Assembly (NCBI RefSeq): GCF_048631835.1
Contig: NZ_CP184640.1
Location: forward strand, 3,205,461 to 3,229,460
DNA from: Psychrobacter sp. ER1
GTDB taxonomy: Bacteria > Pseudomonadota > Gammaproteobacteria > Pseudomonadales > Moraxellaceae
DNA: 24,000 bases
Reading direction: 5' to 3'
The position numbers and the translations under genes were made by a program. Positions 16,952 through 24,000 of the stretch are shown here, piece by piece; position 1 is the first letter of the stretch; the number at the start of each line of letters is the position of its first letter. The notes under the pieces were generated by a model. The model saw only the letters and a list, made by a program, of their open reading frames with translations, did not search any database and was not told the DNA's origin.

Positions 16952-17634
16952 ATGAATAAGCAGCTTTTAATTTTTGATTTTGATGGAACACTCATTGATA
17001 GCGTACCTGATTTGGCCGACGCAACTAACGCCATGCTAACCACATTGGGCAAAGAGACCTACCCTATCGAGACGATACGTAACTGGATAGGCAATGGTTC
17101 ACGCCTGCTTGTAGAGCGCGCTTTGGTCGGCAAGGTAGAAGTAGCAGATGGCGAGCTAACGGTTGAGGAAGCCGATCATGCAGAGCAAATATTTTTGAGG
17201 CTTATAAGAATCTTAGTGGTAGTAAAACCGTTGCCTATCCAGATGTCGATGACGGACTCAAAAAACTGCATGCAGCTGGATATACACTTGCTTTAGTCAC
17301 CAACAAGCCCATTCGATTTGTACCGAAGATATTGCAGTCGTTTGGCTGGCAAGACTTATTTAGTGAAGTGATGGGCGGTGACAGTTTAGCTGTCAAAAAA
17401 CCAGACCCCGCGCCCCTACTACACGTCTGTGAGACTCTCAATGTCAGTGTTGATCAGGCAGTGATGATTGGAGACTCTAGAAACGATATGTTGGCTGGAC
17501 AGAACGCCAATATGGACACGCTCGGCCTATCTTATGGTTATAACTACGGGCAAGACATTCGCGAATTAAATCCGACCGAAGCATTTGACCACTTTGCTGA
17601 CTTAGTTGCTTGGATTATGAAAAATAAAATCTAG
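16952..17634 (+). pseudogene. gph: Phosphoglycolate phosphatase (HAD superfamily), frameshifted at a T5 run
   Basis: DFDGTLIDS (HAD motif I), LVTNKP (motif II), KKPDP and GDSRND (motifs III/IV). One extra T at 17193..17197 joins the two ORFs (QIFFEAYKNLSGSKTVAYPDV...). Confidence 0.85.
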
Positions 17635-17684: not shown

Positions 17685-18133
17685 TTACGCTTTATTGCGA
17701 TAGCTCAGCGCCTCAGATACGTGGGCGCTGTTGATATCGGTACTATTAGCCAAATCCGCGATTGTACGAGCCACCCGTAATACTCGGTGGTAGCCACGCG
17801 CGGACAAATTCAAACGCTGCTGAGCAAGTTGCAATAACTGCTTTTCATTGTCGCCTAGTTGGATATACTCATCGATTTCGCTAGGGCTAAGCTCATTATT
17901 AACCTTTTGCTGGCGCTGCATTTGATGCTGATGCGCGACTACTACCCGAGACCGTACTTGCTTGGAGGTTTCACCTACTTGACTATTTTGCAAATCGGCA
18001 ATCGGTAATGCAGGCACGGTAATATGTAAGTCAATACGATCTAAGAGAGGACCAGATAACTTATCTTGATAGCGTTTGATCTGCTCAGGTCGACAGCGGC
18101 AGCGACCTGAAGTATCACCATCATAACCACACG
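17685..18133 (-). pseudogene. comM: 3' fragment of comM/yifB (Mg-chelatase-like AAA+ protein), truncated by the Tn7-like insertion
   Basis: CGYDGDTSGRCRCRPEQIKRYQDKLSGPLLDRIDLHITVP... matches the ComM/YifB C-terminal region. Similarity ends at (P)CGY, exactly where TGTAATAA begins at 18134. Upstream codons of the ORF are transposon-end sequence. Confidence 0.8.
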
Positions 18134-18227
18134 TGTAATAATCCCAAATTACTGGCACAATACCCTTCAATATCACCTCTTTTCTATTCCAATACTTACC
18201 AATTAAATGGCAAAGATATACCAAATA
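18134..18227 (+). repeat. Tn7-like transposon end with four direct TnsB-site-like repeats
   Basis: The end starts 5'-TGT. The cores are cccaaatta (18143..18151), cttcaatat (18165..18173), taccaatta (18197..18205) and taccaaata (18219..18227), spaced 22, 32 and 22 bp. The 16-nt contexts have the form yAATAnnnnnCAAwTw. Confidence 0.55.
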
Positions 18228-18247
18228 GCTGTCATAAAATTTAATAA

Positions 18248-18916
18248 ATGCTAAATAAGCGACAAATTATTATGAGACAAATGCGCAAAATAAAACCGAC
18301 TAGAATGAGCGTATCAGGAAGAATTCCATATAAAGGTAAATCATTACCTTATGAATCAACTTTAGAGCGCGATTTAATTATAGTCTATGCCTTTCGAGAA
18401 GATGTGGAGGATATAGTTGCTCAACCAATTACTGTACCCTTCGTCAAGAATGGCGTTACTTATAAGTATACCCCTGACTTTTTTATCAAGTTTGTAGAAG
18501 ATGCTGGTAAGCCAAATATGATTATTGAGGTTAAACCACATGATCTATGGCAAGCGAACTGGAGAGACTGGTCGGATAAGTGGAAGACGATGCAGCGCTA
18601 TTGCAAAGACAATGGTCATGTATTTCATATTTATGATGAGAGTCGTATTAAGAATACAGCTTTAGACAATATCAATCTCTTAATGAAATTTAAGAACTCT
18701 GCAATCGAACAAGAGGATAAGGAAGCGGTTTTAGAGCAGGTTAGGCTTATGGGTACAACTACCATAGATTACCTATTAACCCGTTTTTACATAGGCTCTT
18801 TCTTGCACAATCACGGATTACGAGTAATTTATCATTTACTTGCTACTAAACGATTAAAATTTAATTTATTCCTTAAAATTAACGACTTAACAGAGGTATG
18901 GGTGGATTATGAATAA
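18248..18916 (+). CDS. tnsA: Tn7-like transposase endonuclease subunit TnsA
   Basis: A restriction-endonuclease-like E/D/K pattern: YESTLERDLI, YTPDFFIKF and MIIEVKP. It sits directly inside the transposon end and overlaps the tnsB start by 8 nt. Confidence 0.8.
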   Translation: MLNKRQIIMRQMRKIKPTRMSVSGRIPYKGKSLPYESTLERDLIIVYAFREDVEDIVAQPITVPFVKNGVTYKYTPDFFIKFVEDAGKPNMIIEVKPHDLWQANWRDWSDKWKTMQRYCKDNGHVFHIYDESRIKNTALDNINLLMKFKNSAIEQEDKEAVLEQVRLMGTTTIDYLLTRFYIGSFLHNHGLRVIYHLLATKRLKFNLFLKINDLTEVWVDYE

Positions 18917-21054
18917 TAGTAGTAGTGTAGAAACTGATTCATCTATCTTTGACAGGCATTTAGATGATTTTCAAAAATTAGGTATTGATATAGATACAAT
19001 AGATGAGTCAGTACCAACAACGAAAGGATATGGTTTCATGATTGACCATGATGATGAGGGTTTAGATAGGTTTGAAATCAGGCGCGGACGTATTGATTTG
19101 CGTAAAGGAAAAACCTATCTAAATAAGTCTGATAATAGACATTATGAGCTAGTCGAGTACCTAAACGAGAGTACAGAGGTCGTAGTTCGTAGTGTTGAAA
19201 CGGGTAAAACCAGTATTGTTAATATACAAAGTTTGTCAAACATTAAAGATCAGAATAATGATCATATCAATGTCGATATTAGTGCTATTGGCGATGAAGA
19301 GTGGCAAAAAGCACAGTCAAAGTTTGAGGCAATCAAACCTATTATCAATACTGAGCATAGCTATAATCATCGAAAATTAATCATGGAACGCTCAAAGGAG
19401 ATCAATGTCTCAATTCGTTCATTATATCGTTGGATCAAGCAATATCAGACTGTTGGCTCTATTGCAGGACTGGTAGAGAAAAAACGAGGTTGGAAGGAAG
19501 GTGGATCGCGTCTAACTAAAGTTCAGGACGATGTTATTCAAAGAGCCATAAAAGCATTTTATTTGACCAAGCAAAGGGCTAGTTTAGAGCAGACTTATCG
19601 CGAAGTTTTTCGCATTTGCTCCATGGAAAAGATCGACAAACCAAGTAAAAAAGCTATCAAATTACGTATTGATCAAATTTCAGAGTATGAACAGCTTAAA
19701 AAGCGTGGCCAAATAGAGCAAGCTAGAAAAAATTCAAACCCACACCCCATTCCTTTCCTAACGCAGATTATCCATTAAGCGTGATTCAAATAGACCATAC
19801 ACCTGTTGATTTAATGCTAGTCGATAACGAACACCGAAAATCTATTGGTAGACCATATTTAACACTAGCTATCGATGTCTATAGCCGAATGATTACGGGA
19901 TATTACTTATCATTAGATCCACCATCAGCGACCTCAGTTGCAATGTGTGTCGCAAGAAGTATCTTACAAAAAGAGAGTCTTTACTTGAACATGGTATTGA
20001 TCATACAGAATGGCAAGTGTATGGCTATCCTCAAAAGATACACGTTGATAATGGTGCTGACTTTCGATCAAACACCTTGGCTCGTTCGTGCGAAATTCAT
20101 GGGATTAACCTTGAATTTAGACCAGTAGCAAGACCTCAGTTTGGTGGACATATTGAACGTCTCATTGGTACGTTTATGAAAGAGGTTCATGGCATCAACG
20201 GTACAACATTTTCTAATATTAAGGAAAAAGACAATTATGACTCTGAAAAAGAAGCGACACTTACCTTGGATGAGTTTGAGGTTTGGCTTCTTACCTTTAT
20301 AACCAAGGTTTATCACAAGCGAATCCATAGCACTTTAGGGCGAAGTCCTACGGAACAATGGTATCTAGGTATTCATGGTGATGGTGAAAGCATTGGTACA
20401 GGCTTACCATCATTACCAGAAGACTCAAAAACCTTACTATTAGACTTCATGCCAAGTTTTGAGCGAACCATCCAGCATTTTGGCGTGACTATAGACTCCT
20501 TACGCTATTACGACCCCTGCTTAAATATTTTTATTAACGCCAAAATAAAGATGGAAGTAAGAAACACTTCTTATTCAGACGTGATCCAAGAGACATTAGT
20601 AAAATTTGGTTCTACGATCCAAGTTTACACCAGTACTTTACAGTCCCCTTTGCTAACCAGCAGCTACCAAGTATGAGTCTGTGGGAATATAAACAGATTC
20701 GTAAGCAGATTTCTGATAAAGGGAATGAGTATATAAATGAACATCAAATTTATGAAGCTTTAACCGAGATGCGAGACTTAATCGAAGATTCTTCTAAAAA
20801 AACGAAGTCTGCTCGTAGACAAGCGCAACGTCAAAAGACACATGCAAAAGTCAAACTATCGTAGCCAAAACAATAATGGCGAGTAAAAGAAACAATGCCA
20901 ATACTAGCAGCGATCTAGAACCGACTAACAGTGATGATATTCAAACAAATTTACAGCCATCAATACAAGCTTCTAAAAACCTGAAAAGAGTGTCGTTGAA
21001 CAAAATGGTCTACTTCTAGATACGACTGATTTTGATTTTGGAGATATTGAATAA
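18909..21054 (+). pseudogene. tnsB: Tn7-like DDE transposase TnsB, about 715 aa once roughly five homopolymer frameshifts are repaired
   Basis: DDE context: VIQIDHTPVD, KIHVDNGADFRS and GGHIERL. The fragments join when one A is added at 19727..19732, 19968..19972, 20542..20545, 20853..20855 and 20984..20987. The C-terminus is ...LLLDTTDFDFGDIE, and the stop overlaps the tnsC ATG. Confidence 0.85.
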
Positions 21055-21952
21055 TGAATGAAATTATCACTGATAACAAAACGTCTTACCTCCATGTATA
21101 TAAAGATTTCCGTCATCTTGTAGAATATTCTGATGACGATCGATTAGATTTTATTAACGAAGCTCGCTGGGTCAATTATGAGGTAGCAGACAATATAATT
21201 TTAGAGCTAAACGGGCTTTTGAGGTTCCCAAAAGACTAAGAATGCCTAACCTTTTAATAGTCGGTGATTCAAATAACGGCAAAACCAGTATTGCTCATCG
21301 TTTTTTAGAAAACATGGCATGCCAATCGAAGAGAATGGCATTTTAGTCAAGCCTGTTATTTTTGCAAATGCTCCTTCAAGCACTAATGAAAAAGACCTCT
21401 ATATGTCCATTCTAGAGGCACTTCATATGCCCTATAGAACGAAAGATTCAGCATCTTCATTGCTCTATCAAGTACTTCATTTATGCCGCGAGTATCAAGT
21501 CAAAATGATCATGGTTGATGAGCTTCATTCATTACTTACAGGTACACCAAGACAGCAACGTCAGGTAATGAATGCTTTGAAGACATTATGCAATGAATTA
21601 CAGATACCGATTTGTCGGTATTGGAACGCAGGATGCGAAACGTGTACTACACACTGATCCTCAGCACGCTAGTCGATTCGATATTGTAGAAGTCCCTCTT
21701 TGGAAATTAGATAAAAGATTTCAAGAATTACTTTTTCGACTCGAAAGTGTTTTTCCGCTTAAGAATCCATCAGAATTGCATCAACCCAAAACTGCTGCCC
21801 TTATTCATGCCGTTTCAAAAGGAAATTTAGGCAATATTCATAGGCTTCTGTCAGTTTGCGCCAAAGATGCCATTCTTAGTGGCACAGAACAAATTACCGA
21901 AGACATTCTGACTAAAAATAAAGATGTTCGCTCAACCGAAGGACTCAGGTAA
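21054..21952 (+). pseudogene. tnsC: AAA+ transposition regulator TnsC/TniB-like, about 300 aa with three frameshifts
   Basis: Walker A PNLLIVGDSNNGKTS, Walker B MIMVDELHSLL and the TniB-like LKTLCNELQIPxVGIGTQDA. The shifts are at 21230..21233, 21309..21312 and about 21611..21613. Confidence 0.8.
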
Positions 21953-23114
21953 TGGTTAGCGTAAAACCATTACCTGTTGCTACGCCTCTTTTAGATGATG
22001 AAAGCATAAGCTCATGGTTACTACGGGTATCTTTAAATCAAGGCTGCGACCTTTCTACAATTCTTTTTTATCACTGGTCTAAATACAATTTGCGTCATCA
22101 TGATTTTGATAAAGGCTTTAATCATATTAATAAGCAAATACATCAAGATATGGCTGTACTTGCTCAAACTGATACTAAATTTTTTGATAATAGAAGCTTG
22201 ATACAGTTCAATGAAGATATTGGATTAGAGTATCGACCAAATATTAGCCTTACTTGGGTGTTACCTATTCCCAAATTTCATTCTAAAACGATGGTAGGCC
22301 ATCAATATTGCGCTCAATGTATGCAAGAGGACAAAAGTGCGTATTTGAGATTAAAGTGGCGATTTAGTTGGATTGTTTACTGTGAACAGCACTTAATTTC
22401 ACTACAAAGTTCGTGTTCTAGCTACGGATTGCCGTATCAACCACATTTGATCAAAGCGAATCACCGATTTATCAATAGATGTCCTCATTGTCGAGAAAAG
22501 CTAAGCGCTGAAGCAGTAAATCAACTTTTATGTACAGATGCTTATGAGTTTCAATTGAAGGCTGAACAAGTATTGAGCGCTAATCAAGCAATAGTTTTTG
22601 GACATTCAATAACCTCTGGTGACTGGTTTGAGCTGACATTATTTTTCATCAACCTCATAAGGAAGAGTACTTTAGAAAAAGAATTAATCTATAAAAATTT
22701 AGTAGAAACCCTTGGTATATGTGGTATCGATGGTCTTAGGCTAAGCAAAACTAGAACGGGGCTAAAGTTTGATTACTTATCCTACGAGGAAAGAGTAATG
22801 CTTATCGCCTACACCAACCAGATGCTCAAAATCAAATTTGATGACTGGCTATTAGCTTGTAAGAAAAATAATTTAACGCAAAATAGCTTTAGGCTGGGTA
22901 AGCGACCCATCATACCAAAAGCCTTTTACCTATCTACAATGAGCTTCCTTCAGCTGTAAAGCGTCAAATTAAAGCAAACAGGATATCTGCTAAACCTAAG
23001 TCAGCAAGGGCGGTTAATAATTCTTGGGAAAGAATGCAATTACGAATTGAGAAGTTGAAAATATATGATAAATCAAAACCCAACAAGAGAGCTAGAAGAG
23101 CAACTAAGTCATAG
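21952..23114 (+). pseudogene. tniQ: TniQ/TnsD-family target-selection protein, C-terminal frameshift
   Basis: N-terminal TniQ signature PLLDDESISSWLLRVSLNQG and zinc-ribbon-like YCAQC...YCEQH...CPHC. A shift near 22924..22930 extends the ORF (IYNELPSAVKRQIK...) to a stop at 23112..23114. Confidence 0.72.
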
Positions 23115-23649
23115 TATATTCCAAAGCTACACTGATTTTAGTAAATTTCTTCGTAGTCGGACGGGCAAAAGAAACTTCGTTGCCCCTGCACTACAGGTTT
23201 GATGAGTTTTTCAAAGAATGCGACTTACAATGGGGCAAGATACCCTCCTATAAGATTATAACTCACACCTTTGATAATCACTTTGTCCAAAAAAATATGC
23301 CTGTACTTGGATGGCTTTTAAAAACTCGTCAAATCTTTGTCGATGATACAACAGAGCAAATTATTATTTCACAAGCAGCTATCCAAGAAATGTTCGTCGC
23401 CTTTGATGATGATCCACCAAGCATACTGCAAGAATACTTACTTTTTTGAATCAAAGACAGAAGCGTCGTCAGAGTAAGCCAAGTTCTGTTAGAACGGTCT
23501 TTCAACCCATAATTAGTTTATACCACCACTATGGCTTACGAGGCTGCCAAACGCCGTCACAAGCTCAAATAGATAGGTACTTGATCAAGAATAAGGGACA
23601 TATAACGGCTATGATTTCTTTTGTTCAATACTTAAACGGTCATCACTAA
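23065..23649 (+). pseudogene. Unknown fifth transposon ORF, fragmented over several frames
   Basis: Three abutting ORF pieces run in the same direction: MINQNPTRELEEQ... from 23065, then 23180..23449 and 23446..23649. They follow tniQ at the position of the fifth gene in comM-targeting Tn7-like elements. I recognise no domain. Confidence 0.3.
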
Positions 23650-23957
23650 TTTAATCTCGTTTGTAAACGATCATCTAAGAAAATACCAATTAAGCCAGCT
23701 TATAGAATAGCTGGAGATAAGGATCGGCAAAAATTTGAGAAGCGATTTATAGCACTAGCTATGTTAACCAGACCGATAAACGATAAGGAAAGATCCAATG
23801 GATCAATTATGGTATTAGGTACTTTCATCGATTTTTTATCAGCATAAAAACGCTATCAGATGTAGATATCAAGCCATGTAATGAGTATGAAAATTTAATG
23901 TTAGTTCAATACGATAATAAACAGTTTGCGTTACCCAAATTTTAATTAGCTTTTAAT

Positions 23958-23980
23958 ATTTTGTATTTTGTATTTTGTAT
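23958..23980. repeat. Perfect heptamer tandem repeat (attttgt x3 plus a partial unit)
   Basis: Read directly: attttgt attttgt attttgt at, just upstream of a possible ATG at 23995. Confidence 0.6.
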
Positions 23981-24000
23981 ACAGGTCTATAATAATGAGA

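What the first reader, a model, noticed from the sequence alone, without database searches (positions are those of the whole stretch)
17685..24000. Tn7-like transposon inserted in comM, the attachment site used by Acinetobacter AbaR/Tn6022-type islands
ComM similarity stops at the (P)CGY codons, precisely where an element beginning TGTAATAA starts (18134). tnsA, tnsB, a short TniB-like tnsC and a TniQ/TnsD-like gene follow. The same target and gene order define the AbaR/Tn6019/Tn6022 resistance-island family. The cargo and the other end lie beyond the window, and that is where resistance, defence or other novel cargo would sit. No cas genes are visible inside the window.
Basis: partly seen in the sequence, partly recalled or inferred. 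Interest (0 to 1): 0.6.

Follow-up and report, generated by a model that had tools for sequence, protein, structure and literature searches.

The report
Tn6022-like transposon, shifted comM site
A 32-kb Tn7-type jumping element carrying phage-defence genes sits in the comM gene of a Psychrobacter; it is a relative of the Acinetobacter Tn6022/AbaR elements, but it has a shortened targeting protein and lands about 200 bp from their site.

Summary
comM similarity ends at window 18133, and a Tn7-like end (TGTAATAATCCC) starts at 18134, followed by tnsA, tnsB, tnsC and tniQ.

Extending into the genome gives a 32,429-bp element:
- It has a matching inverted end and TnsB-site repeats at both ends.
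- It has a TnsF homologue after tniQ and a TnsE homologue at the far end. This is the Tn6022 architecture.

It is not at the Tn6022/AbaR position:
- Long-TnsF elements (A. baumannii, a Psychrobacter, Neisseria elongata) split comM at the GGGS codons.
- This lineage splits it at NPCP|CGY, 199 bp further 3', beyond the Walker B motif.
- Its TnsF is 293 aa and lacks the N-terminal zinc-finger region.

At least five or six Psychrobacter hosts carry it at this site. One has a 5-bp duplication (ACGGG). This genome and two others have none, and have lost 481, 385 and about 950 bp of comM next to the far end.

The split tnsB, tnsC and tniQ genes are most likely assembly errors.

Cargo:
- a type II CBASS;
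- a thymidylate-synthase-like and aGPT-Pplase gene pair;
- a Nudix gene;
- an ABC-F gene;
- a small biosynthetic operon.

No classical resistance genes and no cas genes were found.

Verdict: a new variant of a known kind.

The parts
17685..18133 (-). 3' fragment of comM (ComM residues 380-526 of an intact relative), abutting the tnsA-proximal transposon end
   Evidence: Pfam Mg_chelatase_C 1.2e-31. tblastn and blastn against intact ComM of G068. Junction sequence.
18134..18247 (+). tnsA-proximal transposon end. The terminal TGTAATAATCCC is followed by three TnsB-site-like repeats at 18144-18157, 18199-18212 and 18221-18234.
   Evidence: 24 of the first 30 bases match the inverted other end at genome 3256022. 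The motif occurs only at the two ends, in inverted orientation; chance expectation 0.02.
18248..18916 (+). tnsA (222 aa, intact; PD...EVK nuclease motif present)
   Evidence: Pfam Tn7_TnsA-like_N 2.5e-16 and TnsA_C 1.1e-06. 96% aa identity to the G008 copy.
18909..21054 (+). tnsB (716 aa in intact copies). Here it is split by 1-bp deletions at about 19726, 19979, 20541, 20845 and 20974.
   Evidence: Intact 716-aa ORF in G008 with rve and Mu-transpos_C domains. Indel list. dN/dS 0.07 and no in-frame stop.
21054..21952 (+). tnsC (TniB-type AAA+, 299 aa in intact copies). Here it is split at about 21229, 21306 and 21611.
   Evidence: Pfam TniB 1.8e-29 on the middle fragment. Intact ORF in G008. 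Indels.
21952..23114 (+). tniQ (387 aa in intact copies). Here it is cut to 335 aa by a 1-bp deletion at about 22923.
   Evidence: Pfam TniQ 5e-14. tblastn frames. Indel list.
23065..23945 (+). Short tnsF (293 aa in intact copies), overlapping the end of tniQ. Here it is split at about 23191, 23441 and 23788, with CAA>TAA at 23647.
   Evidence: BLASTP E 5e-18 to residues 209-446 of the 481-aa TnsF of an A. baumannii Tn6022. Always 293 aa in 16 clusters down to 59% identity.
23946..24000 (.). Start of the cargo, which runs on beyond the window to genome position 3256022 (equivalent to window position 50562). The far end reads ...GGAACTATTACA, followed by the 5' fragment of comM.
   Evidence: tnsE homologue at genome 3254057-3255947, minus strand.

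Best explanation
This is a complete member of the TnsF-using, comM-targeting branch of Tn7-like transposons (the Tn6022 family in the wide sense), in a Psychrobacter chromosome. It is 32,429 bp long, from genome position 3223594 to 3256022.

Shown:
- The element has two inverted ends carrying repeated TnsB-site-like motifs.
- Its genes run tnsA-tnsB-tnsC-tniQ-tnsF at one end, with a tnsE homologue on the opposite strand at the other end.
- Nearly the same element (95-100% nt in the transposition module) sits at the same comM point, within 2 bp, in at least five or six Psychrobacter lineages.
- The comM flanks of those hosts are only 73-86% alike, so the element arrived by site-specific transposition rather than by descent or flank recombination.
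- One host has a clean 5-bp duplication.

Inferred mechanism:
- TniQ with the short TnsF recognises the conserved comM sequence that encodes CGYDGD...CRCRP, on the tnsA-end side.
- TnsC is recruited, and TnsA and TnsB insert the element a fixed distance away, between the codons of P379 and C380. This parallels how Tn6022 uses TniQ and TnsF near the Walker B codons.
- TnsE would give a second pathway, into conjugating plasmids.
- The loss of the N-terminal zinc-finger part of TnsF goes with the 199-bp shift of the insertion point. This is a correlation only: four or more short-TnsF elements against three long-TnsF elements.

The missing 481 bp of comM next to the tnsE end has different endpoints in two other hosts, while the transposon tip itself is exact. 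It is best explained by a later transposase-made adjacent deletion (an intramolecular replicative event).

The frameshifts in this copy are most likely consensus errors of the assembly, so the element is probably functional.

The cargo makes it a mobile defence and metabolic island.
For: Ends and TnsB sites.

Domains.

TnsF homology. Its fixed 293-aa length. Rarity of the short form (4 of 401 Moraxellaceae genomes, all Psychrobacter; the other 18 genomes with a match have 446-504-aa frames).

TnsE:
- AF2 model.
- The top structural match is the TnsE C-terminal domain 5d16_A: Z 10.7, rmsd 3.0, 140 of 161 residues. The next hit has Z 6.0.
- A homologue lies at the same distal position in the G021 element.

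Independent insertions.

TSD ACGGG in G091.

Tn6022 site at the GGGS codons, with the same orientation: A. baumannii; Psychrobacter G021; N. elongata.

Published work:
- Tn6022 needs TnsF; the 10-bp Walker B anchor; 39% cointegrates: PMC10293859.
- TnsF and TnsE roles, TSD ACCGC: PMC11014353.

Assembly-error reading:
- Indels are mostly 1-bp losses in A/T runs, and the loss rate rises with run length: 3% of 4-runs, 75% of 7-runs, 3 of 3 8-runs.
- No A/T run of 9 or more in 3.29 Mb, and only 35 runs of 8.
- 277 indels against 490 mismatches versus the colinear intact G091 copy.
- dN/dS 0.07-0.18.
- The same kind of frameshift occurs in about a third of nearby housekeeping genes.

Cargo.
Against: - No transposition assay exists for this lineage. 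The roles of TniQ and short TnsF, and the position of their binding site, are inferred from Tn6022.
- The link between TnsF truncation and the site shift rests on few lineages, and TniQ also differs (28-39% identity).
- In this genome there is no target duplication, so its own insertion cannot be shown to be a simple one.
- Frameshift density is several-fold higher in the island than in the backbone. The two nucleotide-modification genes are free of indels (rough p about 0.01). Some real decay is therefore not excluded.
- The TnsE call rests on a model of mean pLDDT 66. Neither BLASTP nor profile comparison linked it to Tn6022 Orf4 (E 0.077 via G021).
Confidence: 0.85

Rival explanations
1. 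The copy in this genome is a decaying, immobile fossil. The frameshifts in tnsB, tnsC, tniQ, tnsF, tnsE and most cargo genes are real mutations.
For: - Indel density in the island is about 1 per 100-500 bp, against roughly 1 per 3 kb detected in flanking core genes.
- There is one clear nonsense change in tnsF at 23647, and 15 stop codons in frame-corrected cargo genes.
- The thymidylate-synthase-like and aGPT-Pplase genes have no indel although they contain two 7-runs and three 6-runs. This could reflect selection.
Against: - An indel-to-substitution ratio of 0.57 is far above natural values.
- Losses scale with homopolymer length and are almost always shortenings.
- The whole genome lacks A/T runs of 9 or more, and has about a tenth of the 8-runs expected from relatives.
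- Housekeeping genes (gph, hemN-like and others) show the same frameshifts.
- Frame-corrected proteins are 99-100% identical to G091.
- dN/dS is 0.07-0.18.
Confidence: 0.1
2. The comM DNA missing next to the tnsE end was not removed by the transposase. Two alternatives:
- A second element at the Tn6022 site was lost together with flanking comM.
- The island was acquired by homology-facilitated illegitimate recombination.
For: - Psychrobacter also hosts long-TnsF elements at the GGGS site, 199 bp away, so double occupancy is plausible.
- The genus is related to naturally competent Acinetobacter (own knowledge).
- No direct evidence for replicative transposition exists in this lineage.
Against: - In three hosts the junction lies exactly at the terminal ...ATTACA of the element, while the comM endpoint differs: nt 656, 752 and 186. 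Illegitimate joins or resection would not stop at the same base three times.
- The flanks are host-specific, so the islands did not come in with donor comM.
- The 5 bp on the two sides do not match, which excludes simple insertion into an already deleted gene.
- Tn6022 gave 39% cointegrates in E. coli (PMC10293859), so nick-only, replicative events occur in this family.
Confidence: 0.25
3. The new insertion point is set by TniQ, or by another protein. The short TnsF is a passive remnant.
For: - TniQ here is 387 aa, slightly longer than Tn6022 TniQ (371-380 aa), and only 28% identical.
- TnsD-type proteins can bind DNA through C-terminal extensions (PMC10293859).
Against: - Short TnsF keeps exactly 293 aa down to 59% identity and has dN/dS 0.17, so it is under selection.
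- It overlaps tniQ in an operon, as in Tn6022.
- It retains the part of TnsF homologous to the DNA-binding CB1/CB2 and pCAT regions (PMC10293859).
Confidence: 0.2
4. The genes belong to a Tn5053/Tn402-type element (TniABQR), not a Tn7-like one.
For: [quoted passage not shown]
Against: - A TnsA endonuclease gene with both Pfam domains is present.
- A TnsE homologue is present.
- There are several TnsB-site repeats per end.
- A 5-bp duplication is seen in G091.
- No resolvase gene was found among the scanned ORFs.
Confidence: 0.01

Closest known systems
Tn6022 and the AbaR/AbGRI1 backbone transposons of Acinetobacter (TnsABC + TniQ + TnsF, distal TnsE; PMC11014353, PMC10293859)
   Same: - Target gene comM, with the tnsA end against the 3' part of comM.
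- Gene order tnsA-tnsB-tnsC-tniQ-tnsF.
- tnsE homologue on the opposite strand at the far end.
- TGT...ACA tips and a 5-bp duplication (in G091).
- Homologous proteins.
   Different: - The insertion point is 199 bp further 3', at P379|C380 and not at the GGG(S) codons. It lies on the other side of the Walker B codons.
- TnsF is 293 aa and lacks the roughly 200-aa zinc-finger N-terminus.
- Identities are low: TnsA 25-34%, TnsB 41%, TnsC 43%, TniQ 28%, TnsF 23%.
- There is no uspA/sup and no resistance region.
- Host is Psychrobacter.
Long-TnsF comM element of another Psychrobacter species (G021, locus L050)
   Same: Same genus, same gene and same architecture, including a homologue of the 631-aa distal protein (E 6e-23). 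TnsB is 55% and TniQ 39% identical.
   Different: TnsF is 474 aa, and the element sits at the Tn6022 site (comM split at about residue 312).
Tn7-like element of A. baumannii plasmid pC13-2 (NZ_KU549175.1)
   Same: Closest TnsB and TnsC found in the plasmid collection (48-49%). A short (284 aa) TnsF-like ORF follows tniQ.
   Different: It is on a plasmid and is not next to comM. It carries copper-resistance cargo. The TnsF-like protein is only 20% identical.
Tn7 (TnsABCDE, attTn7 downstream of glmS)
   Same: Heteromeric TnsA/TnsB transposase, an AAA+ regulator, TniQ-domain target selection, the TnsE C-terminal fold, a 5-bp duplication, and insertion beside a conserved coding sequence.
   Different: The TnsC is of TniB type and short. 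The target selector is split into TniQ plus TnsF. Insertion inactivates the target gene.

Membership tests
Tn7-like transposons | TnsA endonuclease plus DDE TnsB transposase plus AAA+ TnsC | tested here: met
   Pfam PF08722/PF08721, rve plus Mu-transpos_C, and TniB. Intact ORFs of 222, 716 and 299 aa in G008.
Tn7-like transposons | Inverted TGT...ACA ends with several TnsB-site repeats | tested here: met
   24 of 30 terminal bases match. There are 3 motif copies at one end and 2 at the other, inverted, and none elsewhere in 42 kb.
Tn7-like transposons | 5-bp target-site duplication | tested here: inconclusive
   Present in G091 (ACGGG). Absent in this genome, G008 and G058, where comM DNA next to the far end is missing.
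Tn6022 family (TnsF-dependent comM targeting) | TnsF homologue encoded with tniQ | tested here: met
   BLASTP E 5e-18 to TnsF of an A. baumannii Tn6022. The gene overlaps tniQ.
Tn6022 family (TnsF-dependent comM targeting) | Full-length TnsF (about 480-500 aa) with an N-terminal multi-zinc-finger region | tested here: not met
   The protein is 293 aa and aligns only to TnsF residues 209-446. There is no room upstream, because the gene overlaps tniQ.
Tn6022 family (TnsF-dependent comM targeting) | TnsE homologue on the opposite strand at the distal end | tested here: met
   The 631-aa ORF next to the far end matches the TnsE C-terminal domain: Z 10.7, 140 of 161 residues. Sequence comparison to Tn6022 Orf4 was not significant.
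Tn6022 family (TnsF-dependent comM targeting) | Insertion in comM with the tnsA end toward the 3' part of the gene | tested here: met
Tn6022 family (TnsF-dependent comM targeting) | Insertion at the Tn6022 point (GGG codons about 47 bp upstream of the Walker B codons; TSD ACCGC in A. baumannii) | tested here: not met
   A. baumannii is split at nt 837-841. This element sits at nt 1134-1138 of a 526-codon comM, 199 bp further 3'.
Tn6022 family (TnsF-dependent comM targeting) | Transposition into comM requires TniQ and TnsF | not testable with these tools
   This needs a transposition assay. It has been shown only for Tn6022 itself (PMC11014353, PMC10293859).
AbaR/AbGRI1 resistance islands | Antibiotic or heavy-metal resistance region carried on the Tn6022/Tn6019 backbone | tested here: not met
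   No resistance family was found in the cargo. The only related hit is an ABC-F protein below the NCBIfam cut-off (338 against 380 bits).
CRISPR-associated transposons | cas genes and a CRISPR array inside the element | tested here: not met
   There was no Cas family among the 26 or so ORFs scanned in Pfam, NCBIfam or PADLOC. A few ORFs of at least 90 aa were not scanned. There was no tandem repeat array.
Tn5053/Tn402 (TniABQR) | No TnsA; resolvase TniR with a res site | tested here: not met
   TnsA is present. No resolvase was found among the scanned ORFs.

The most novel reading that the evidence does not exclude
The truncated TnsF has re-aimed a Tn6022-type transposon at a second conserved motif of comM (the CPCGY/CxC codons). 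The element then uses replicative, one-ended events from its tnsE end to delete the stretch of comM that holds the Walker B attachment site of its rivals (long-TnsF Tn6022 elements and Tsy elements). The deletions seen in three hosts would thus be a form of competition between transposons for one gene.
Probability: 0.12. Interest if true: 0.75.

Novelty: new variant of a known kind. Interest (0 to 1): 0.5.

Why it matters
TnsF is a recently recognised target selector, and how it reads DNA is not settled. This lineage is a natural variant that lacks the zinc-finger half of TnsF. It still hits one precise point of the same gene, 199 bp away from the Tn6022 site and on the other side of the Walker B codons. 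Comparing the two forms could show which part of TnsF or TniQ sets the address, and whether such selectors can be re-aimed.

The repeated, exact-ended deletions of the target gene point to a replicative side reaction of a Tn7-type element in nature.

The element also moves a CBASS system and an unvalidated nucleotide-modification gene pair between Psychrobacter species. It does so at near-identity while the host genes differ by 15-27%.

For genome annotation, this assembly's frameshifts should not be read as gene decay.

Tried and rejected
- A search of the genome for an inverted copy of the first 100 bp of the end found nothing over 15 bp. The ends match too imperfectly; the far end was found through the comM 5' fragment instead.
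- Megablast of 17 kb of the island against plasmids gave no match.
- Rfam and Tandem Repeats Finder on the ORF-poor cargo found no RNA family and no array.
- Pfam on ten ORF fragments of genome region 3229.6-3236.9 kb gave nothing. The region was solved only through the intact G091 copy.
- For the 631-aa distal protein, Pfam, NCBIfam and PADLOC gave nothing, and the ESM Atlas gave no usable lead.
- Foldseek against the PDB found nothing at E of 0.001 or better.
- BLASTP and hhalign to Tn6022 Orf4 were not significant.
- The wide structural search settled the question.
- phmmer of TnsA against PDB sequences gave no significant TnsA hit. The catalytic motif was read from the sequence instead.
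- The Benler 2021 text search for comM returned only 'communities'.
The contexts of the more distant short-TnsF proteins, including a 272-aa Moraxella one, could therefore not be checked.
- Considered and rejected: insertion into an already deleted comM (the flanking 5-mers do not match), and arrival by flank recombination (the flanks are host-specific).


Full report
**Where the window lies.** The window is positions 3205461-3229460 of a single 3.29-Mb contig with 42.9% G+C. Record titles of close relatives of the transposase name the genus as Psychrobacter.

**The observation.**
- The minus-strand ORF at 17685-18224 carries the C-terminal Mg-chelatase/ComM domains.
- An intact 526-aa ComM from another species of the genus (G068) aligns to it from residue 380, the C of NPCP|CGY. 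DNA similarity ends at window 18133.
- The next base starts TGTAATAATCCC.
- tnsA (222 aa, both TnsA Pfam domains) follows. After it come pieces of a DDE/Mu-type tnsB, a TniB-type tnsC and a TniQ-family gene.

**The broken genes.** In this assembly tnsB lies in six frame segments, tnsC in four, and tniQ is cut short.
- A complete genome of another species (G008) has the same module at 92% nt identity, with intact ORFs of 222, 716, 299, 387 and 293 aa.
- Of the 13 internal indels between the two copies, 9 are single-base losses in this genome, 8 of them in A or T runs.
- With frames restored by alignment there is one stop codon in five genes, and dN/dS is 0.07-0.18.
- The chance that a run is shortened rises with its length: 3% of 4-runs, about 20% of 6-runs, 9 of 12 7-runs and 3 of 3 8-runs.
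- The whole genome has no A/T run of 9 or more and only 35 of 8. A 45-kb sample of G008 backbone already has six 8-runs.
- About a third of nearby housekeeping genes show the same frame breaks, often at homopolymers.
- A third species (G091) has a colinear copy of the whole element. It differs by 490 substitutions but 277 indels, and frame-corrected proteins are mostly 99-100% identical.
- My reading: the breaks are consensus errors of the assembly, and the element is probably intact.
- Errors are several-fold denser in the island than in the backbone, which I cannot fully explain. Low coverage of a strain-variable island is one possibility. I leave about 10% for real decay.

**The other end.**
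- The ChlI domain of ComM is encoded at genome 3256283-3256624, minus strand. The open frame ends near 3256007.
- Just inside it the sequence reads ...TTGGAACTATTACA. This is the inverse of the left tip, matching at 24 of the first 30 bases.
- The motif CYAAWTWRMTGKCA occurs three times at the left end and twice, inverted, at the right end. It occurs nowhere else in 42 kb; chance expectation is 0.02. The motif was derived from these ends. Its inverted recurrence at the far end is the informative part.
- The element is 32,429 bp long (3223594-3256022).

**Independent insertions.**
- The first 780 bp of the element are 95.5-100% identical in eight loci from at least five or six Psychrobacter lineages.
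- The adjoining 450 bp of comM are only 73-86% identical between different hosts, which is backbone-level divergence.
- So the element entered each host by site-specific transposition.
- In G091 the flanks read ...CCACACGGG|TGTAAT and ATTACA|ACGGGCACGG. This is a 5-bp duplication, ACGGG, in an otherwise complete comM.
- In the other hosts, including this genome, the left junction lies 2 bp earlier (...CCACACG|TGTAAT).

**Missing comM DNA.**
- In this genome the far end abuts comM nt 656, in G008 nt 752 and in G058 nt 186. The left end is always at about nt 1137.
- So 481, 385 and about 950 bp of comM are gone, and there is no duplication.
- No other copy of the missing Mg-chelatase part exists in the genome.
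- The transposon tip is exact in all three hosts, and the comM endpoints differ.
- The 5-mers on the two sides do not match, so the element did not enter an already deleted gene.
- The simplest mechanism is an intramolecular replicative event that joins the tnsE-side end to a nearby point and loses the DNA between.
- This is inferred. Support comes from the report that a Tn6022 of A. johnsonii gave 39% cointegrates in E. coli (PMC10293859).
- TnsA here keeps its PD...EVK motif.

**Family.**
- The 293-aa ORF that overlaps the end of tniQ has no Pfam hit. It matches the 481-aa TnsF of an A. baumannii Tn6022 over residues 209-446 (E 5e-18).
- That stretch is the part homologous to the XerH-like CB1/CB2/pCAT regions. 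The zinc-finger N-terminus described for TnsF (PMC10293859) is absent.
- The short form is exactly 293 aa in 16 protein clusters down to 59% identity.
- In a draw of 401 Moraxellaceae genomes it occurs in four, all Psychrobacter. The other 18 genomes with a match have 446-504-aa frames.
- The 631-aa ORF beside the far end, on the opposite strand, has no sequence-family hit. I modelled it from 19 homologues (mean pLDDT 66; C-terminal third 74-91).
- An exhaustive structural search puts the TnsE C-terminal domain first: 5d16_A, Z 10.7, rmsd 3.0 Å, 140 of 161 residues. The next hit has Z 6.0. The middle domain resembles OB-fold ssDNA binders at Z 5-6.
- A homologue of this protein (E 6e-23) sits in the same place in the long-TnsF element of Psychrobacter G021.
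- The architecture is therefore that of Tn6022: TnsABC, TniQ, TnsF and a distal TnsE (PMC11014353).

**The attachment point differs from Tn6022.**
- A. baumannii genomes with islands keep comM nt 1-841. The sequence GCGGT (the published ACCGC duplication on the other strand) lies at nt 836-840, in the GGG codons.
- A 12-kb Tn6022 in CP104448.1 has the comM 3' part against tnsA and the 5' part at the other end.
- Psychrobacter G021 (TnsF 474 aa) and Neisseria elongata (TnsF 479 aa) split comM at the equivalent place, about residue 312 of the 526-aa protein.
- The Walker B codons (LFLDE, residue 329) are 47 bp further on. They are the published TnsF anchor (PMC10293859).
- The short-TnsF elements sit at P379|C380, which is 199 bp beyond the Tn6022 point and 135 bp beyond the Walker B.
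- With the orientation kept, the flank next to the tnsA end no longer holds the Walker B. That flank is where Tn7-type selectors bind.
- Instead it encodes CGYDGD...CRCRP. I infer that this stretch is the new recognition site.
- In the three hosts with deletions, the Walker B region and the Tn6022 point have been removed.

**Cargo**, read from the intact G091 and G008 copies, in the order they lie after tnsF:
- a genus-wide repeat of about 120 bp;
- a minus-strand operon of a permease, an iron-containing redox enzyme (Haem_oxygenas_2), an ornithine-cyclodeaminase-family protein and a PLP enzyme;
- an unknown 325-aa protein, a LysE exporter and a TetR regulator;
- an IS;
- a type II CBASS: phospholipase effector 383 bits, cyclase 574 bits, E1-E2 810 bits, and a 170-aa ORF that is probably Cap3 (not scanned);
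- an IS256-family transposase;
- an unknown 455-aa protein, an ABC-F ATPase (338 bits, below the 380 cut-off) and an unknown 183-aa protein;
- a thymidylate-synthase-like gene overlapping an aGPT-Pplase3/ADDT gene;
- an HTH-M78 peptidase and a Nudix protein (PADLOC candidate PDC-S07);
- then tnsE.

G008 lacks the 15.5 kb from the repeat to IS256. A recent paper lists aGPT-Pplase among predicted, unvalidated defence domains, and thymidylate synthase among validated ones (PMC13092281). No classical resistance gene and no cas gene was found.

**Verdict.** The finding is real.

Noticed in passing
genome 3229435-3229557 (just beyond the window end; L008:6435-6557): A repeat of about 115-125 bp, present in many copies (82-89% identity) in dozens of Psychrobacter genomes, lies exactly where the cargo of this element stops matching that of G008 and G058. 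It could be a MITE-like hotspot for cargo exchange.
   Followed up: partly
genome 3234496-3234582 (L008:11496-11582): A second short repeat (76-87 bp, about 79% identity) is scattered through many Psychrobacter genomes. It is not a tRNA or any Rfam family.
   Followed up: no
genome 3250206-3252093 (beyond the window): An overlapping gene pair, thymidylate-synthase-like (332 aa) and aGPT-Pplase3/ADDT (306 aa), of the kind phages use for thymidine hypermodification. It is the only 1.9-kb stretch of the cargo without a single indel in this error-rich assembly.
   Followed up: partly
window 16952-17634: The phosphoglycolate-phosphatase-like gene upstream of comM is split into 114-aa and 100-aa ORFs in different frames. 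The G008 orthologue is one ORF. This is one of many housekeeping genes broken by the assembly's errors.
   Followed up: yes
genome 3170000-3185000 (outside the window): 15 kb without any ORF of 150 aa, with a G+C pattern that repeats every 6 kb three times. This is probably three tandem rRNA operons. It was not checked with Rfam.
   Followed up: partly
L037 (Neisseria elongata ATCC 25295, NZ_FOPS01000003.1): A Tn6022-type element (TnsB 41% identical, TnsF 479 aa) is inserted in comM at the Tn6022 position in a Neisseria.
   Followed up: partly
genome 3237106-3237984 (L008:14106-14984): An IS-like unit with a 279-293-aa ORF and no Pfam match is repeated at several places in this genome (for example 599012, 1446639 and 1979775) and across the genus at about 72% identity.
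   Followed up: no
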